The position numbers and the translations under genes were made by a program. 64,000 nucleotides of DNA. Source: Terriglobia bacterium. GTDB lineage: Bacteria; Acidobacteriota; Terriglobia; 20CM-2-55-15. Shown one piece after another: positions 26,694 through 35,102 of this stretch; the stretch's first letter is position 1, and every line of letters begins with the position of its first letter. The notes beneath the pieces were generated by a model that saw only the letters and a list, made by a program, of their open reading frames with translations, ran no database searches and was not told the DNA's origin. The stretch lies in the NCBI GenBank assembly GCA_963664115.2, contig CAXWPJ010000010.1, positions 256,001 through 320,000 on the forward strand, given 5' to 3'.

Positions 26694-27487
26694 CAGCCCG
26701 TGGTGAAAGTCGGTTTCATAGTATTTAGAAGAAGGACCGGATGCGACCATATCGCGAGGAACATTGAGGTAAGGAGACCGCGCTATGGGAATGGGACGAA
26801 GAAAGGACCGACAGGAGACGTTGTGGGTGGCGACGGCGGAGTTGCCGCGAACCGCGGGCCACGTGTTCTATGAACGGGTGAACCGAATCCTGAATGAGAC
26901 GAATTTCGACCGGTTCGTCGAGGATGCCTGCGAGAAGTTCTACGCCGCAGTGATGGGTCGGCCGAGCCTGGCACCGGGCAGGTATTTTCGGATGCTGCTG
27001 GTCGGCTACTTTGAAGGGATCGATTCGGAGCGGGGAATCGCATGGCGGTGTGCCGATTCTCTGAGCTTGCGGGAATTTCTGGGATTGGGACTGAGCGACG
27101 CGGTGGCGGATCATTCGACGGTGTCGCGAACCCGACGGCTGATCGATCTGGAAACGCATGGAAAGGTTTTTTCGTGGATGTTGGGCGTGTTGGCCAGTGA
27201 GGGCCTGATCGATGGGAAGACGGTGGGCGTGGATGCATCGACGCTGGAGGCGAATGCGGCGATGCGAACGATCGTGAGACGGGATACCGGAGAAGCCTAC
27301 AACGAGTTCCTGACACGGCTGGCGCAGGCGTCGGGCATTGAGACTCCGACCCAGGCCGAGCGGGCCCGGCTGGACCGAAAGCGCACGAAGAAGGGATCGA
27401 ACAAAGAGTGGGAACATCCCCACGACCCGGACGCGCGAATCACGAAGATGAAGGACGGCCGGACTGATCTGGCGCACAAGGTCGCAC
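26694..27487 (+). mobile_element. IS1182/IS5-like element: left end and truncated transposase (26785-27487), cut by IS3 copy 2
   Basis: Left IR CAGCCCGTGGTGAAAGTCG after CTAA; GRPSLAPGRYFRMLLVGYFEGIDSERGIAWR, DHSTVSRTR, VDASTLEANA, DPDARITKMKDGRT. Confidence 0.85.
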
Positions 27488-27551
27488 AGAGGTGGACCCC
27501 ATACGTTGGACAGCTTGGCAGCCAATTTAAGGTGGATTCCGCGGTTCATGT

Positions 27552-28400
27552 TTATGCTGCCGAGGTCAGTGGCCGTGTTCCCGCGTAGGCTTCGCTCGGC
27601 GTGAGATCGTCGAGTTTGGAATGCGGGCGGTCGTTATTGTAATAGTTCATCCAGACACCTATGTGGTGCCGGGCATCTTTGAAGTCACTGAAGGCGTTTA
27701 GATAAACGCATTCGTATTTGATCGAGCGCCATAGGCGTTCGATGAAAACGTTGTCGATCCATTGCCCCTTGCCGTCCATGGAGATCCGGATACCTCGTTC
27801 TTTAAGTCGGTCGGTCCAGGCCTTGCTGGTGAACTGGCTGCCCTGATCGGTGTTGAAGATTTCCGGACTGCCGTATTCCTCGATCGCCTCGTCGAGGGCT
27901 TCAAGGCAAAACGTCGTGTCCTGGGTGTTGGACAGCCGCCAGGACAACACCTTCCGCGTATGCCAGTCCATGATCGCGACCAGATATAAGAATCCGTGCG
28001 CCATCGGGATATACGTCACGTCGGTAGACCACGCTTGATTCGCCCGCTCCACGGCAATGTCGTTGAGTAGATATGGGTACACCGGATGAGCCGGGTTTCT
28101 CCGGGACGTCTGCGGTGCCACCGAGCGCAGCCCCATCAACCGCATTAGTCGGCGTACCCGCTTCCGGCCCACATCGTAGCCGAGACGTTTCAGATGACGC
28201 GTCATCTGCCTGGACCCATACCAGGGCATCTTCAGATACGCCTCGTCGATCACGCGCATCAGGTCCAGATTGCGATCACTCTCACCCCGTGGCCGATAGT
28301 ACCAACTCGAACGGCTCAACCCGATCAAGTCGCATTGCCGGACCACACTGAGCTGCTCATGGCCCGGTTCGACCACCTCGCGCCTTCGACCCAAGCTCAT
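27552..28400 (-). CDS. IS3 transposase OrfB
   Basis: Same as copy 1 except K8E. Confidence 0.95.
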   Translation of the reverse strand: MSLGRRREVVEPGHEQLSVVRQCDLIGLSRSSWYYRPRGESDRNLDLMRVIDEAYLKMPWYGSRQMTRHLKRLGYDVGRKRVRRLMRLMGLRSVAPQTSRRNPAHPVYPYLLNDIAVERANQAWSTDVTYIPMAHGFLYLVAIMDWHTRKVLSWRLSNTQDTTFCLEALDEAIEEYGSPEIFNTDQGSQFTSKAWTDRLKERGIRISMDGKGQWIDNVFIERLWRSIKYECVYLNAFSDFKDARHHIGVWMNYYNNDRPHSKLDDLTPSEAYAGTRPLTSAA

Positions 28401-28678
28401 CGATTGAAGGCTCGTGCTAAAAAATCCCGTTCCACGACCAGTTCACCGATCTTGGCCTGCAGGTCTTTGATCTCGTCCTCGTGGTTCCGGGCCGATGGAT
28501 CCCGGCCTCGCTGGAATCCTTCTTTAACGCTATCAAGCGCATCACGCTTCCACTTCGTGATCATGTTCGGATGGATCTTGTACCGCGCCGCCAATTCGGC
28601 CATCGTGCCGTCGCCACGCATCGCGGCCAGCGCTACCTTCGCTTTGAAATCTGCTGAAAAATTCCGTCGTTTCGCCAT
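28397..28678 (-). CDS. IS3 transposase OrfA
   Basis: Identical protein to copy 1. Confidence 0.95.
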   Translation of the reverse strand: MAKRRNFSADFKAKVALAAMRGDGTMAELAARYKIHPNMITKWKRDALDSVKEGFQRGRDPSARNHEDEIKDLQAKIGELVVERDFLARAFNR

Positions 28679-29550: not shown

Positions 29551-29687
29551 CATAGAGTTACTCGACGACGTCGCGCCTCAACACCGCTGTTGCCAACTTT
29601 CCTCAACTATATCCGTGACGGCATAGAGTTACTCGACGACGTCGCGCCCAACACCGTGGCCAACTTCCTCAACTATATCCGTGACGG
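29551..29687. repeat. Imperfect tandem duplication (71 bp + 66 bp) at the 5' end of the cyclophilin gene
   Basis: CATAGAGTTACTCGACGACGTCGCGCC...AACTATATCCGTGACGG occurs twice; the first copy has 5 extra bases. Confidence 0.9.
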
Positions 29688-31863
29688 CGATTATGACGGC
29701 ACGTTTTTCCACCGCGCGATTCCAGATTTTGTTCTTCAAGGAGGCGGTTTCAGTCTGGGGTCCGATGGCGTACTGTCTGAAGTCACCTCAGATCCTCCGG
29801 TTAACAATGAATTCCGTCTCTCGAATATCCGTGGAACCGTTGCAATGGCTAAACTCGGGGGAAATCCCAACAGCGCAACCAATCAATGGTTTATCAACCT
29901 CGTCGATAATTCCGCAATTTTGGACGCTCAGAACGGTGGATTCACCGTGTTCGCTCGCGTGATTGGCGACGGCATGGACGTCGTCGATGCGATCGTGGCA
30001 CAGCCGATATTTGATTTTGGCGACACTTTTACGGACACCCCGACGATTAACTATTCTCAAGGTGATACTGTCCTGCGTGAAAATTTTGTAAACATAAACA
30101 GCATGACGGTCATCGAAACTACTTTGACGTCAACGGGCACAGCCACACCGGCGTCTGTGCGAACCGGAGCATCCGTGCTGTTCACAGTGACCGTCACACC
30201 CGGCACAAACCCTGCAAGCACAGGTATCACCGTCACGGCCGACCTGACTTCGATTGGAGGATCCACCGCACAGGCGCTGTTCGACGACGGCACAAACGGC
30301 GACGTCACAGCGGGAGATAACGTCTTCTCCTTTCTGGCGAACGTGCCAAGTGGCGTCACCTCTGGCGACCAGTCGATCAGTGTCAGCGTGAGCGATGCAA
30401 TTTCCCGCAGCGGAACGACGTCGGTCGCTCTAACGGTGTCGGCGGGTCAGACGTTCTCCATCACCGACAGGGCTGCGGTTTCTCTCTCTTCCGAGGGTGC
30501 GTCAGCAACTCCTGTCTTCGGATATGGGCACGTGGAAGCCGACGACGGGATGACCCCACCGGCGGGGCTGGCGATGTTGAGACTACGTGTTGGAGAAGTG
30601 CTCGTCACCGAGGCTGCCATGTCAGCGGCTCTCCCAATCAAGAGAAGCCGAATCTATGCCGAGGTGGATGGCTCAGAAAACGCCGCGGTGGTCATTAACA
30701 ACCCTAACGACGAGACAGCCTCCGTTTCTTTTTTCTTTACCGACAGCGAGGGTAATGACTTCGGGGGGGGCGACTTTCCGATTGGGGCAAATGAACAGAT
30801 GATCGGGTTGCTCGATCAAGCTCCCTTTAACGGACCTTCATCCTTGAATGGAACCTTGACGCTTGACGCTTCACTCACAGTCTCTGTCATCGCCGTGCGT
30901 GTCCTCGTCAATGAGCGTGAGGAGTTCTTGCTGACGCCCTTGCCAATAGTCGACCTGGACAGCCCCGGCTCCGAAGACGGGATCTTGTTCCCTCTGTTTA
31001 CGGCTAACGGAGGTTGGAGCAGCCAAGTCGTGCTTGTGAATCCAACAGACACTACTTTAACGGGCACCGTTGAGTTCAAGATTCTGGGCGGCGGGGAAAC
31101 GGCCGTCACGGTCGATAGTGTCGCCGGGACTTCTTTTAACTACTCGATCTCTCCGCGATCATCCCAGAACATGGCGGTGTCTAATGTGTCTCCTTCCCTT
31201 ACCCTGGGGTGGGTGGAGGTCACACCTACAGGTAGCAGCACACCTTCTGGAACAACGATAATTTCCTTTAGCGATGGAGCAGTCACGTTGTCAGAGGCAG
31301 GTGTGCCCGCCGTCCCCGCCGGAAACGCATTTCGACTTTATTCGGAGGTGTCGGGGGATTTTTTCGCTGGTGAATTGGGAGCTATTCAAACCTTCCTGAG
31401 CATAGCGAATGTTTCATCGGATACAGCCACGATCACTATTCAGCCCTATGGACTGGACGGGACATCAGTCGGACTAACCGGCACTCTTCTACTTCCCGAA
31501 AACGGTCAGGCGGCGGTGTTCCTGAATCAGGTGCCCGGTCTTGAAGCACTCCCGATACCGTTCCTGGGTGTTCTGCGTGTTTTGAGCACAACATCCATTT
31601 CTGTGACCGGGGTTCAAGCGCGTTTTAACGAACGCTTTGAGTTTTTGTTTACCGCCACTGGGCCTGTGGATGAAACGGCACCCGAAATAACCTCTGATGT
31701 GTTCTTCCCTTTCTTGGCTGACGGCGGCGGTTGGAGCAGCGAGTTCGTCTTATTTAGTGGTGCGGAAGGCCAGGATTCGTCGGGGAGGCTGAGATTCATC
31801 GATTCGAACGGGGACGCTCTCGATCTGTCGGTGTCTTCGACTTCGCCTCAAACAACACCCTGA
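29590..31863 (+). CDS. Cyclophilin-type PPIase fused to beta-rich extracellular domains (5' end disrupted)
   Basis: APNTVANFLNY, FFHR.IPDFVLQGGGF, RGTVAMAK, SATNQWFINL, FTVF; then LFDDGTNGD..AGDNVFS and repeated FP..A.GGGWSS domains. Confidence 0.8.
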   Translation: MPTFLNYIRDGIELLDDVAPNTVANFLNYIRDGDYDGTFFHRAIPDFVLQGGGFSLGSDGVLSEVTSDPPVNNEFRLSNIRGTVAMAKLGGNPNSATNQWFINLVDNSAILDAQNGGFTVFARVIGDGMDVVDAIVAQPIFDFGDTFTDTPTINYSQGDTVLRENFVNINSMTVIETTLTSTGTATPASVRTGASVLFTVTVTPGTNPASTGITVTADLTSIGGSTAQALFDDGTNGDVTAGDNVFSFLANVPSGVTSGDQSISVSVSDAISRSGTTSVALTVSAGQTFSITDRAAVSLSSEGASATPVFGYGHVEADDGMTPPAGLAMLRLRVGEVLVTEAAMSAALPIKRSRIYAEVDGSENAAVVINNPNDETASVSFFFTDSEGNDFGGGDFPIGANEQMIGLLDQAPFNGPSSLNGTLTLDASLTVSVIAVRVLVNEREEFLLTPLPIVDLDSPGSEDGILFPLFTANGGWSSQVVLVNPTDTTLTGTVEFKILGGGETAVTVDSVAGTSFNYSISPRSSQNMAVSNVSPSLTLGWVEVTPTGSSTPSGTTIISFSDGAVTLSEAGVPAVPAGNAFRLYSEVSGDFFAGELGAIQTFLSIANVSSDTATITIQPYGLDGTSVGLTGTLLLPENGQAAVFLNQVPGLEALPIPFLGVLRVLSTTSISVTGVQARFNERFEFLFTATGPVDETAPEITSDVFFPFLADGGGWSSEFVLFSGAEGQDSSGRLRFIDSNGDALDLSVSSTSPQTTP

Positions 31864-31918: not shown

Positions 31919-32359
31919 CTAATTAACGACCGTGATCGGTCCAGGTGCCGGACGGTCGACGCCCTCGACGACGTCCAGTCCTTCTCCTATCCAATCGCGG
32001 ATTCCGCAGAACTGGCCGGCGTTGTACCCGGCGTCGGTAAACATCTGTGCAGCGCGCGACGCGCGCCCGCCTGAGCCTCAGTAAAAAACCAGTTCGATAT
32101 CCTTCGGGATGTCGGCCATCCGGGCTTCGAGCTCACCCATCGGGATGTGAATCGCGCTTTTGATCGCGCCATTGGCTTCGAGCTCCCAGTCTTCGCGGAC
32201 ATCAATCAGGAGAAAGGTATCCCCGCTTTCGAGCTTGTCTTTGAGAGTGGGGATTGCAATGCGTTCGATATCGGCACTTTGCTGGGCCTGGGCAAGACCG
32301 GCGACACCGACTATCGCGATCCACACCGCCCCAAGGACTCCAATCCATCGCTGCGACAT
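31919..32359 (-). CDS. Secreted rhodanese-domain selenoprotein (Sec at codon 94; 146 aa)
   Basis: GAGGAGG RBS, signal peptide, LLIDVRE..E...GAI..AIHIP; active loop VFY-TGA-GSGGRAS; frame stays open 52 more codons (AAQMFTDAGY...GIRDW..EGL) to TAG 31919-31921. Confidence 0.85.
32049..32070 (-). promoter_or_regulatory. Candidate bacterial SECIS hairpin
   Basis: GCGG-GCGCGC-GUC-GCGCGC-UGC; apical loop starts with GU, 17 nt after the UGA. Confidence 0.6.
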
Positions 32360-32539
32360 TCTTGACCCTCCTCGATTGTTATTCGACACTCTGAACACCG
32401 GCATTATAGCGAGATTCGACGGACCTACAAACAAGTCGTCGACTCCATAGGATATTTGTCTGACAATAACGAGGATCAAAGAAAGACCGATTTCCGGATG
32501 ATCGTTGGCTCGTACTACAGACTCACATTGGACCACACT

Positions 32540-33430
32540 ATGAAACGACACTATGTAGCCACTATTGACGCGAGCCGGTTCCAGACACCGGAACACTACA
32601 AATCCCACTCTTCAGGATATACACGCCTCGCTCTCATTGACCACACGATCGATCCGTCGTCCGTACATATGGAACTGGCTCTTGCCGAAATCGAACCCGG
32701 CGGGCATCTCGATCCTGTCGCGCACGCCTTCGAAAAAGGATTCTATGTGCTGGCTGGGACCGTCATCGCTGAAATAGACGGCCGCACCGCGGCGCTGCCC
32801 CCGGATCATTACGGTCTCATCCCTTTAGGCGTGACGTATGCAATGGTCAACGCGGGATCGGAACCGGCGCGTCTCCTGGAAATGATCGCGCCACAAACGA
32901 AGCCGGCCGATGACATGTTCAAGGACACCTACTTTCACAAGGATGGCGTTGGGCCGACCTCGGGCACGGTAGCTGACCTGTCCGACCCGCGCGTGTCAAA
33001 GTACCTGGGCAAGTTCGAGGAGTCGCAGTTGCCTGAATCGGGAGAAATAGCGGCCGTGGGAGCCCGCAGCGGGTCGATCACCGGCGTCGCCATCAAAGAA
33101 ATGATCGACCGCATGCTGGGCGCCGAGCACATGGCTATGTTCATGGTGCAGTTTCGTCCCGGAGGCATCGGCACCCAGCACGATCATGCGTTTGAGGAAT
33201 CTTACTTCTTCCTCTCAGGTGAGGCAGAAGCGGTATTGAACGGGACAACGTATCGCGTCAAGGCAGGAGACATCGTGTGGACAGGCGTCGGTTGCATGCA
33301 CAGCTTTGAGAATGTCGGAGATAAACCGGTGCGATGGATCGAGACACAGGCGCCCCTGCCGACCCAGACAGAGGCCTTTCGTTTCCGGCGTGAATGGGAA
33401 CCGGTCGCCAGGAAGATTGAGCAGTCTTAA
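32540..33430 (+). CDS. Bicupin domain protein
   Basis: Two cupin motifs: HAFEKGFYVLAG and HDHAFEESYFFLSG...G..H.F.N. Start uncertain (32456 or 32540). Confidence 0.85.
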   Translation: MKRHYVATIDASRFQTPEHYKSHSSGYTRLALIDHTIDPSSVHMELALAEIEPGGHLDPVAHAFEKGFYVLAGTVIAEIDGRTAALPPDHYGLIPLGVTYAMVNAGSEPARLLEMIAPQTKPADDMFKDTYFHKDGVGPTSGTVADLSDPRVSKYLGKFEESQLPESGEIAAVGARSGSITGVAIKEMIDRMLGAEHMAMFMVQFRPGGIGTQHDHAFEESYFFLSGEAEAVLNGTTYRVKAGDIVWTGVGCMHSFENVGDKPVRWIETQAPLPTQTEAFRFRREWEPVARKIEQS

Positions 33431-33541: not shown

Positions 33542-33970
33542 TCAGCCTTTGTTAACCATCCATGCGGAGAAGCTTTCGAGGAAAGCCCTGAAGCCGTCGA
33601 GGTGCTCGAGGGGGAAGTTGTATTGCTCATGCGCGCGGCTCAGCGTCTTCTCGAAACATGCGAGCCAGACCTCACGTGCCTCCGCATCGATCTCAAACGG
33701 AAGATGTCTCGCTCTCATGCGGGGCGGCCCGTACTTTTCAAAGTAGAGCGGGGGTCCTCCCATGAGCGTCACGAAGAAGGACGCCGATTTCTTCGACGCT
33801 TCCTCCATGTCGTCGGGAAAGAGATGCCGGAGCTCGGACTTCTCCAGTTCTCCGTAGAAGTCGGACATCAACCTGAAGATGTTCCCCTCGCCCATAATAT
33901 TGTAGATGTCCTTGCTGGGTCCGGGTCCCTGAGGCGGCCCACCGGGAGGCGTATAGATGATTCGGTCCAT
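33542..33970 (-). CDS. Group II truncated hemoglobin (HbO-like)
   Basis: FY, GGPPLY, PRMRARHLPFEI with proximal His, W(G8). Confidence 0.88.
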   Translation of the reverse strand: MDRIIYTPPGGPPQGPGPSKDIYNIMGEGNIFRLMSDFYGELEKSELRHLFPDDMEEASKKSASFFVTLMGGPPLYFEKYGPPRMRARHLPFEIDAEAREVWLACFEKTLSRAHEQYNFPLEHLDGFRAFLESFSAWMVNKG

Positions 33971-34067: not shown

Positions 34068-35102
34068 TTAATTACCGGAGAGTTCCCTGTACGCTCCGGC
34101 GATATTTTGCGGGCGCTGGGCTGCGAAGAACTCCCAATGGTCGTAGTCTTCGAGCCTGATACTCTCGCGTGCTTCGTCGAGACTCTGTCCCGCGGCTATC
34201 GCGGCAGCGACTTGTGCCCTCACTTCCTCGCGATACTCAAGATTGTTGGTGAAGTCTTCGTGCCGGCCCAGTTTTCCGTGGCTACAAATGAAATGATCGA
34301 AGTCCATGGCGGCCACCTGCTTGACCAATTCAATTTCGCTGGCGGTTGAAACTGCCGGGCCGAAAGGTGTCCGGTCGATCGTGACCCAGTCCGACGCGAA
34401 AAGCACGTTCGTACCGTCAACGAACCGGACGATCGTATTGTCATCGGCGTGAGCGACCGGGAAGGGGATGACCTCGACGAGTTTACCGCCCAAACGAATA
34501 TTGAGGGGTTCCGTATAGGTCAAGTCCGGAGGAACAACGTTCTTGAACGGACCACGCGTCACTTCCGCACCGCTGAGCACGCCATCTTCGTTGTCATCAT
34601 ACAAATCGAACTGTCGCCCCAGGTTTCCCATGGCTTCGGTATATTCGAGGCGGCCATTGCCGTTGGCGTCCTGTTCCCGGAACCGTTCCGGGAGCGCTGT
34701 ATTCGCTGGCGGCATTTCCAGATGCCCGATCATGTTCTCGTGGCCGATCAATCGCGCGGTATCCGCCCATATGGCGGCACCGGAGCCGTGGTCATAGTGG
34801 TGATGGCTGTAAATGACATACTTCACCGGCACATCGAATCTCTCTGTCAATTCGCCCTTGAGCCAGCGCGCCATGTCCAGGCCGATCGGTTCAACGAGAA
34901 TGATGCCGTCGGGGGTGACCATGAAGACCGAGACGTAATCGTCCTGCCGTGCGTAATAAACGTCACCCGTCAAATTCCCGATCTCTCGTCCCTGGTACTG
35001 GGTCTGCTGAACGAGGCGGCGATCCTGAGCGCCGGCCGACGGCGTGAGCAGTGTCAGGGCCAAACACCCGACAAGTAAAACTACTAAGCAACTACCCTTC
35101 AT
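34068..35102 (-). CDS. Secreted metallo-beta-lactamase-fold protein with an EF-hand insertion
   Basis: SHHHYDH, H.DD, ICSHG; DANGNGRLEYTE and DDNEDGVLSGAE loops. Confidence 0.85.
   Translation of the reverse strand: MKGSCLVVLLVGCLALTLLTPSAGAQDRRLVQQTQYQGREIGNLTGDVYYARQDDYVSVFMVTPDGIILVEPIGLDMARWLKGELTERFDVPVKYVIYSHHHYDHGSGAAIWADTARLIGHENMIGHLEMPPANTALPERFREQDANGNGRLEYTEAMGNLGRQFDLYDDNEDGVLSGAEVTRGPFKNVVPPDLTYTEPLNIRLGGKLVEVIPFPVAHADDNTIVRFVDGTNVLFASDWVTIDRTPFGPAVSTASEIELVKQVAAMDFDHFICSHGKLGRHEDFTNNLEYREEVRAQVAAAIAAGQSLDEARESIRLEDYDHWEFFAAQRPQNIAGAYRELSGN

What the first reader, a model, noticed from the sequence alone, without database searches (positions are those of the whole stretch)
31919..32359. 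Hidden secreted rhodanese selenoprotein: catalytic Cys codon is TGA with a SECIS-like hairpin
Seen: the ORF track stops at ...ELVFY*, but this TGA (32078-32080) sits where single-domain rhodaneses carry the catalytic Cys (VxYCxxGxRS). Read-through gives VFY-U-GSGGRASRAAQMFTDAGYNAGQFCGIRDWIGEGL, which completes the fold including the G...W...GL tail. A GC hairpin (GCGCGC-GUC-GCGCGC) follows with its loop 17 nt after the UGA. Established: bacterial Sec insertion uses UGA plus an immediately downstream SECIS with a G in the apical loop, and rhodanese-like selenoproteins are a recognised but poorly characterised class. Inference: an exported Sec-sulfurtransferase or selenium carrier, which standard pipelines would annotate as a truncated gene.
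Basis: partly seen in the sequence, partly recalled or inferred. Interest (0 to 1): 0.85.

Follow-up and report, generated by a model that had tools for sequence, protein, structure and literature searches.

The report
Exported selenocysteine rhodanese with second cysteine
The apparent stop codon in this small gene sits at the catalytic site of a rhodanese-fold protein and almost certainly encodes selenocysteine, giving a likely exported, predicted sulfur-transfer enzyme that most database entries cut in half; selenium rhodaneses are an already catalogued kind, but this Acidobacteria-wide subfamily also keeps a second cysteine that may work as a redox partner.

Summary
Observation confirmed (gene is on the minus strand). 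Read through the TGA at 32078-32080, the ORF gives a 146-aa single-domain rhodanese with a signal-peptide-like N-terminus; the TGA aligns with the catalytic Cys of solved rhodaneses. The genome holds selA, selB, selD and tRNA-Sec. Of 79 distinct family loci in Acidobacteriota-type genomes, 75 have TGA at this site and 4 have Cys codons. The hairpin is unremarkable alone (z about 0.8) but meets the published bSECIS model, and three synonymous positions in it are fixed in 45 of 45 genes while 16 control positions vary. New here: all 75 TGA genes keep a second Cys (C118) on a strand next to the catalytic one in this fold, rare in other rhodanese domains (9 of 394). Best reading: a periplasmic PspE-like Sec-sulfurtransferase; 'selenium carrier' is unsupported. 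Rhodanese-like selenoproteins with UxxG are already catalogued as predictions (PMC13188914), so this is a new member of a known kind.

The parts
31919..32359 (-). Coding sequence of the 146-aa rhodanese selenoprotein (ATG to TAG, one in-frame TGA)
   Evidence: Pfam PF00581 52.4 bits over residues 39-113, across the TGA; AF2 model pLDDT 94.7 and Foldseek rhodanese matches
32366..32373 (-). Shine-Dalgarno-like purine run 6 nt before the ATG
   Evidence: seen in the sequence; function inferred
32285..32359 (-). Predicted Sec-type signal peptide, residues 1-25 (basic residue, hydrophobic core, A-Q-A end; no lipobox, no twin arginine)
   Evidence: hydropathy up to 2.51 over 11 residues; same anatomy with divergent sequence in 60 of 74 TGA loci by a crude rule; cleavage site inferred
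32078..32080 (-). In-frame TGA, codon 94, inferred selenocysteine at the catalytic position
   Evidence: aligns with the Cys that is Ser in the C531S-type mutant entries of the Shewanella persulfide reductase rhodanese domain; TGA in 75 of 79 family loci
32063..32080 (-). Six-residue active-site loop U-G-S-G-G-R (family: U-x-G-G-G-R)
32051..32067 (-). SECIS-type hairpin: 7-bp stem, GUC loop (32058-32060), 17 nt between UGA and loop
   Evidence: model criteria from PMC13188914 section 5
32006..32008 (-). Cys118 codon (F-C-G motif), second conserved cysteine at the end of the last strand
   Evidence: present in 75 of 75 TGA loci; 9 of 394 other rhodanese domains; strand E85-88 of the mature model

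Best explanation
The gene has an in-frame TGA at the catalytic position of a single rhodanese domain and very likely encodes a selenoprotein that is predicted to be exported and likely works as a PspE-like sulfurtransferase. Steps: (1) SelB bound to the hairpin at +11..+27 would deliver Sec-tRNA to the UGA (inferred from machinery, SECIS fit and conservation); (2) the signal peptide would send the protein through Sec to the periplasm (inferred from sequence anatomy); (3) the Sec94 selenolate in the U-x-G-G-G-R loop would take a sulfane sulfur from thiosulfate or polysulfide, hold it as a Se-S intermediate and pass it to a thiol or other thiophilic acceptor, by analogy with the double-displacement mechanism of PspE (PMC2593051 abstract; inferred, not tested); (4) Cys118, on the strand that lies beside the catalytic strand in this fold (topology recalled; distance not measured), may form a Se-S bond with Sec94 that releases the sulfur or protects the enzyme in an oxidising compartment (weakest step). 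Odds: Sec recoding about 0.97; export about 0.9; sulfur transfer as the main activity about 0.65; C118 as redox partner about 0.4.
For: Machinery: selA 522.6 bits, selB 383.6, selD 359.8 (itself with one TGA), all over cut-off, tRNA-Sec with TCA anticodon. The only TCA-anticodon tRNA among 53 is tRNA-Sec and TGA ends 400 of 788 long ORFs, so TGA is not reassigned genome-wide. Cys/TGA pairing: 27 of the 30 best loci from 61 related genomes have TGA, 3 have TGY; 36 of 401 phylum genomes match, all 38 matches with one TGA, at the aligned site in 29 of 29 non-self loci read. Sequence after the TGA is as conserved as before it. SECIS: meets all four criteria of the published model; loops GUC, GGA, GGC all fit G[G/U]; synonymous fixation; the 3 Cys genes lose the 7-bp stem; this genome's selD and three other TGA genes have the same 7-bp stem with a G[G/U]N loop. 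All 30 TGA-form genomes of the 61 have a selA match; 2 of the 3 Cys-form genomes have none. Fold and site. RNA-library contigs of three studies span the TGA unchanged. Tree: Cys forms nest inside TGA clades, so Sec looks ancestral.
Against: No peptide or selenium evidence; RNA contigs show presence, not translation, and may hold DNA. The stem shows no two-sided compensatory change (0 of 7 pairs) and related genes are not independent. selA occurs in 53 of 61 relatives anyway, and the 3 Cys genes are one clade, one of whose genomes has selA and another is 68% complete. Five loci of one family (L128-L132) have only weak hairpins by my scan (4-5 bp in the four scored). No substrate evidence: no conserved neighbourhood; loops vary among rhodaneses and set specificity (PMC11284452 passages). 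C118: no distance could be read from the model; it is also kept in Cys forms (7 of 10 short Cys proteins) and in one protein with Ser at the catalytic site (P0219), which fits a structural role too. One clade of 8 TGA genes has no signal peptide, so export is not essential to the family.
Confidence: 0.62

Rival explanations
1. It is a real exported selenoprotein, but its job is thiol/peroxide redox chemistry through a Sec94-Cys118 couple (a rhodanese fold used as an oxidoreductase or redox buffer), not sulfur transfer.
For: Second Cys in 75 of 75 TGA loci and rare elsewhere; the one Sec-to-Cys lineage among the genomes also lost it; the same genome has several other TGA genes of AhpC/TSA and deiodinase-like type with signal-like N-termini.
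Against: The six-residue loop ending in Arg is of the ordinary sulfurtransferase type; every close fold match is a rhodanese; second Cys is kept in a Ser-site protein.
Confidence: 0.22
2. It is a selenium carrier or Se-transferase that binds selenite-derived selenium and hands it on.
For: Rhodaneses can bind selenium in vitro (recalled, no call); the organism has many Sec genes and so a high selenium demand.
Against: Predicted export separates it from cytoplasmic SelD; no shared neighbour in more than 5 of 49 loci within 1.5-2.5 kb; needing Sec for its own synthesis is awkward for a scavenging role (inference).
Confidence: 0.1
3. The TGA is a true stop (93-aa truncated product, or pseudogene/sequencing error) or is read as Trp or Cys.
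For: 73 of 83 database homologs end there; one database protein has W at the site (P0004).
Against: Those ends are gene-caller output; the frame stays open and conserved for 37-59 codons after the TGA in all family loci; hairpin synonymous sites are fixed; no Trp-type TCA tRNA; the TGA is in independent RNA-library contigs.
Confidence: 0.03

Closest known systems
Rhodanese-like domain-containing selenoprotein form 2 (PF00581, UxxG; representative MBM9537886.1) in Table 1 of PMC13188914; form 4 has the same motif
   Same: Same Pfam domain, Sec at the catalytic position, U-x-x-G motif; status there is 'predicted with high confidence', none experimentally verified.
   Different: Sequence kinship with the representative could not be tested. 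Form 4 traces to COG2897 in PMC1088965. The text of the review has no 'signal peptide', 'periplasm' or 'Acidobacteri', and lists no distal second Cys for these forms.
NCBIfam NF041203 rhodanese_LYCAU (form 3, CxU) and NF045694 TsoB (form 5)
   Same: Sec-containing rhodanese-related proteins; weak sequence similarity.
   Different: 40.3 bits against a cut-off of 115 and 19.1 against 805; no CxU or UxxxxU motif here.
E. coli PspE (periplasmic single-domain thiosulfate sulfurtransferase)
   Same: Single rhodanese domain, exported, six-residue catalytic loop; best functional model (abstracts of PMC2593051, PMC10215317).
   Different: Cys enzyme; 24.4 bits against cut-off 102; this protein has Sec, a glycine-rich loop, a second Cys and a Pro-rich tail.
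Rhodanese domains of CoA-disulfide/persulfide reductases (3nta, 3icr) and stand-alone domains 3gk5, 6mxv
   Same: Nearest solved sequences and folds, about 28-32% identity, rmsd 1.5-1.9 A; catalytic Cys aligns with U94.
   Different: No Sec; an aliphatic or other non-Cys residue at the C118 position and an L-x-G-G turn one residue longer in the alignments shown.

Membership tests
Bacterial selenoprotein gene | In-frame UGA with conserved coding sequence on both sides | tested here: met
Bacterial selenoprotein gene | Cys homologs at the aligned site | tested here: met
   3 TGY genes, P0015, P0126 and others
Bacterial selenoprotein gene | selA, selB, selC, selD in the genome | tested here: met
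Bacterial selenoprotein gene | bSECIS: 3-9 nt loop with G in first two positions, 4-16 bp stem, 16-37 nt spacing, <= -7.5 kcal/mol | tested here: met
   loop 3 nt GUC, 7 bp, 17 nt, -11.2; no two-sided covariation
Bacterial selenoprotein gene | Selenium shown in the protein | not testable with these tools
   needs 75Se or MS
Rhodanese-like domain (PF00581) | Score over gathering cut-off and rhodanese fold | tested here: met
   52.4 vs 22.2 bits
Rhodanese-like domain (PF00581) | Catalytic chalcogen residue opening a six-residue loop | tested here: met
Thiosulfate sulfurtransferase (function) | Sulfur transfer through an enzyme-bound intermediate | not testable with these tools
   needs assay
Rhodanese-like selenoprotein form 2 (PMC13188914) | PF00581 with UxxG motif, one Sec | tested here: met
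   U-G-S-G
Rhodanese-like selenoprotein form 2 (PMC13188914) | Sequence kinship with MBM9537886.1 | not testable with these tools
   no tool fetches that accession; alignments of the source papers are figures, which are not held
NF041203 rhodanese_LYCAU (form 3) | Score over 115 and CxU motif | tested here: not met
   40.3 bits; no Cys two residues before U
NF045694 TsoB (form 5) | Score over 805, DsbD-like fusion, two Sec | tested here: not met
   19.1 bits, 146 aa, one TGA
PspE (NF007627, TIGR02981) | Score over cut-off | tested here: not met
   24.4 vs 102; 23.1 vs 126.3
Exported (Sec-pathway) protein | n-h-c signal peptide with A-x-A end | tested here: inconclusive
   anatomy fits and is conserved, but only a hand-made hydropathy rule was run

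The most novel reading that the evidence does not exclude
This is an undescribed two-centre rhodanese subfamily, ancestrally Sec-containing across Acidobacteriota, in which Sec94 and the cross-strand Cys118 form a reversible selenenylsulfide: the first rhodanese with a built-in resolving cysteine for selenium, acting outside the cytoplasm in soluble, lipoprotein and signal-less forms, and part of a large exported selenoproteome that annotation misses.
Probability: 0.35. Interest if true: 0.65.

Novelty: new member of a known kind. Interest (0 to 1): 0.4.

Why it matters
No rhodanese-like selenoprotein in the 2026 catalogue is experimentally verified. This one is small, single-domain, has natural Cys counterparts and a SECIS close to the consensus, so it is an easy handle on what selenium does in sulfane-sulfur transfer and whether a second cysteine resolves it. 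It also corrects annotation: 73 of 83 database homologs are cut at the codon. Two of the RNA runs holding near-identical sequence are labelled sponge metagenome, which points to sulfur or redox handling at the cell surface of a likely symbiont lineage (inference). The recoding itself is ordinary.

Tried and rejected
Plus-strand translation of the given coordinates: no sensible protein. Hairpin stability as evidence: not significant. Covariation: none on both sides; shuffle control uninformative because the 5' arm is invariant. Two of 39 pattern hits (L073, L074) are not rhodaneses and were dropped; 18 were duplicates. Neighbourhood: nothing conserved beyond genus (largest cluster 5 of 49 loci), so the cupin, globin and cyclophilin-domain neighbours were not used for function. 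Promoter and terminator scans: none found. Curated families NF041203, TsoB, PspE, GlpE, MoeB/MoeZ: all below cut-off. Codon-model scan for other Sec genes missed this gene and selD, so its 16 hits are not a full selenoproteome. Tree is the quick IQ-TREE search on 99 columns with 44 of 83 inner branches open; 'Sec ancestral' is a reading of nesting, not a tested root. The Se-to-S distance could not be read: model coordinates are not given. Literature searches without a describing paper: selenoprotein+Acidobacteri+rhodanese (2 papers), selenoprotein+sponge+symbiont+selenocysteine (4), single-domain rhodanese+resolving cysteine (0), periplasmic+selenoprotein+sulfurtransferase+signal peptide+selenocysteine (3), rhodanese+second cysteine+intramolecular disulfide+persulfide (3), rhodanese+selenocysteine+selenenylsulfide+sulfurtransferase (0); judged from listings only. 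The library lacks most subscription papers and I read no supplements, where selenoprotein lists could include this family.

Full report
Observation. The coordinates are right but the gene is on the minus strand. With TGA read as Sec, window 32359..31919 gives a 146-residue protein with one recoded codon, U94 at 32078-32080, and a TAG stop; a purine-rich ribosome-binding-like run lies 6 nt upstream. Standard ORF calling stops at ...ELVFY. Pfam Rhodanese covers residues 39-113, across the codon, at 52.4 bits against a cut-off of 22.2. An AlphaFold2 model of the mature part (44-row alignment, Cys standing in for Sec) has mean pLDDT 94.7 and its best Foldseek matches are rhodanese domains. In the profile alignment to solved structures U94 falls on the Cys that is Ser in the mutant entries of the Shewanella persulfide reductase rhodanese domain, i.e. 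the catalytic position.

Machinery. The own genome (4.89 Mb, 97% complete) has selA, selB and selD over their curated cut-offs, selD itself with one in-frame TGA, and a tRNA-Sec with anticodon TCA. That is the only TCA tRNA among 53, and TGA ends 400 of 788 ORFs over 500 codons, so TGA is an ordinary stop elsewhere.

Family. Among 61 related genomes the 30 best loci had TGA at the aligned site in 27 and TGC/TGT in 3. A pattern scan of one genome per species that left the codon's third base and all synonymous bases free gave 39 loci: 38 titled as Acidobacteriota or members of it and one as 'Candidatus Binatia'; 2 were chance hits and 18 duplicates. In 401 genomes drawn across the phylum, 36 matched at E <= 1e-22 and all 38 matches held one TGA; in the 29 non-self loci returned it was at the aligned site. 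Pooled, 83 distinct loci went into a tree: 75 TGA, 4 family members with a Cys codon (three short ones and L120) and 4 ordinary rhodaneses as outgroup. The three short Cys genes form one clade inside a TGA clade, and the Cys protein P0015 also nests among TGA genes, so Sec looks ancestral and Cys derived; the tree is a quick search with many open forks. All 30 TGA-form genomes among the 61 have selA, and 2 of the 3 Cys-form genomes lack a match, but selA is in 53 of 61 overall, so this adds little. Databases cut the protein: 73 of 83 hits end right before the codon, including NCBI's MEE8076276.1 at 93 aa; the full-length sequence is not in the collection.

SECIS. The hairpin is a 7-bp stem with a GUC loop, 17 nt after the UGA, -11.2 kcal/mol, meeting the four criteria of the consensus model as given in PMC13188914 section 5. 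On its own it is not unusual (z 0.04-0.89; 3.6% of all TGAs have a comparable stem). The evidence is constraint: in 45 distinct core genes three four-fold-degenerate positions in the 5' arm never vary, the two in the 3' arm vary almost only between C and T, and 16 other four-fold sites of the same genes have a commonest base of 40-75%. Loop codons change between Ser, Glu and Ala yet always give G[G/U]N. The three Cys genes lose the stem. No pair shows a two-sided change, which the protein constraint makes likely but which leaves structure unproven by covariation. selD and three other TGA genes of this genome use the same 7-bp stem with a G[G/U]N loop. A distant, mostly lipoprotein-like clade uses a different hairpin at +21 and one family has only weak ones.

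Transcripts. Contigs from four RNA libraries of three studies lie on the gene; those of X15, X18 and X19 span the TGA with no change there, and X17 and X19 are labelled sponge metagenome. This removes the sequencing-error reading; it does not show translation.

Export. Residues 1-25 have signal-peptide anatomy. By a crude rule 60 of 74 TGA loci have such a segment (11 with a lipobox-like match); 8 of the 14 others form a truly signal-less clade, the rest look like misses or cut loci. No dedicated predictor was available.

Second cysteine. Every TGA locus (75 of 75) has a Cys 21-27 residues after the Sec, here C118 in F-C-G. In a library-wide profile search, 8 of 11 short family-like proteins have it against 9 of 394 other rhodanese domains. 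It sits at the end of strand E85-88 of the mature model, Sec at the end of E58-63, at the x of the L-x-G-G turn; from the recalled rhodanese sheet order these two strands are neighbours, which would put the residues side by side. The distance was not measured. The genomic lineage that changed Sec to Cys also lost C118, but that is one event; and one protein keeps it with Ser at the catalytic site, so a structural role is not excluded.

Mechanism. The best-supported reading is a periplasmic PspE-like sulfurtransferase with Sec as nucleophile. PspE is periplasmic, works by double displacement through its active-site cysteine and turns thiosulfate into cellular sulfane sulfur (abstracts of PMC2593051 and PMC10215317); loop arginines bind the donor in another single-domain rhodanese (passages of PMC11284452). 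Shown: sequence, fold, site, machinery, conservation. Inferred: recoding (0.97), export (0.9), sulfur transfer (0.65), resolving Cys (0.4). The gene has no conserved neighbours, so the partner and substrate are open. Rivals: redox enzyme through the Sec-Cys couple (0.22), selenium carrier (0.10), true stop (0.03).

Comparison. The 2026 catalogue lists five rhodanese-like selenoprotein forms, two with UxxG, all predicted only (PMC13188914, passages, section 5 and parts 1-2 of 3 of section 7; also passages of PMC9312934, PMC1976440, PMC1088965, PMC12013277). By that review's own rule (same domain, same Sec motif) this gene falls under form 2; kinship with its representative could not be tested. 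It fails the curated models NF041203, TsoB and PspE. I found no paper on this Acidobacteriota subfamily or its second Cys in the searches (listings only; supplements not read). The scan had no look-alike on record; e1-923872 concerns the different CxU/UxU family.

Verdict. A correct and well-supported selenoprotein call; a new member (probably a distinct subfamily) of a known, still untested kind. Interest 0.4; 0.65 if the Sec-Cys couple proves real. In passing, the genome carries 13 copies of an exported NHL-type propeller gene with an aligned TGA, which earlier scan reports already describe as an uncatalogued family.

Noticed in passing
G000 outside the window: C9:983170, 985750, 994624 (L151, L157, L158) and ten more, one at C10:254436-254735 just before the window: 13 paralogs of a roughly 700-aa NHL-repeat/propeller protein with a signal-like N-terminus, all with TGA at one aligned site; 16 of 61 relatives carry 1-29 copies, 148 of the 150 listed matches with one TGA. 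No NCBIfam model over cut-off, no such entry in the catalogue table as read, one irrelevant paper. Already noted by earlier scan reports. More novel than the finding in hand.
   Followed up: partly
G000 C9:74840, C2:701068, C2:786105, C12:268903, C5:131175 (L152-L156): Further in-frame-TGA genes with 7-8 bp G-loop hairpins: two AhpC/TSA-type (one fused to a DsbD N-terminal-like domain), one OsmC-like, two deiodinase-like (one with EF-hands); four have signal-like N-termini.
   Followed up: partly
L107, L109, L110, L111, L113 (G045, G053, G030, G039, G055): A different rhodanese selenoprotein candidate in relatives: hydrophobic N-terminal part plus rhodanese domain with a C-T-TGA (CxU) site and a 7-bp hairpin further downstream.
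   Followed up: no
L051, L103-L105, L133-L150: Distant clade of the same family, many with lipobox-like signals, using a different hairpin (loop at +21) for the same UGA: SECIS turnover within one family.
   Followed up: partly
G057 (L038, L116), L060/L082, G168, G062: Some genomes carry two copies of the Sec-rhodanese gene.
   Followed up: no
P0219: Family protein with Ser at the catalytic site that keeps the second Cys.
   Followed up: no
window 29590-31863 (+), 32456-33430 (+), 33542-33970 (-), 34068-35102 (-): Neighbours: cyclophilin-domain protein, bicupin, bacterial-like globin, metallo-beta-lactamase-fold protein with EF-hand; the order is shared only within the genus.
   Followed up: partly
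window 26785-28678: ORFs that look like insertion-sequence transposases by eye; not tested.
   Followed up: no
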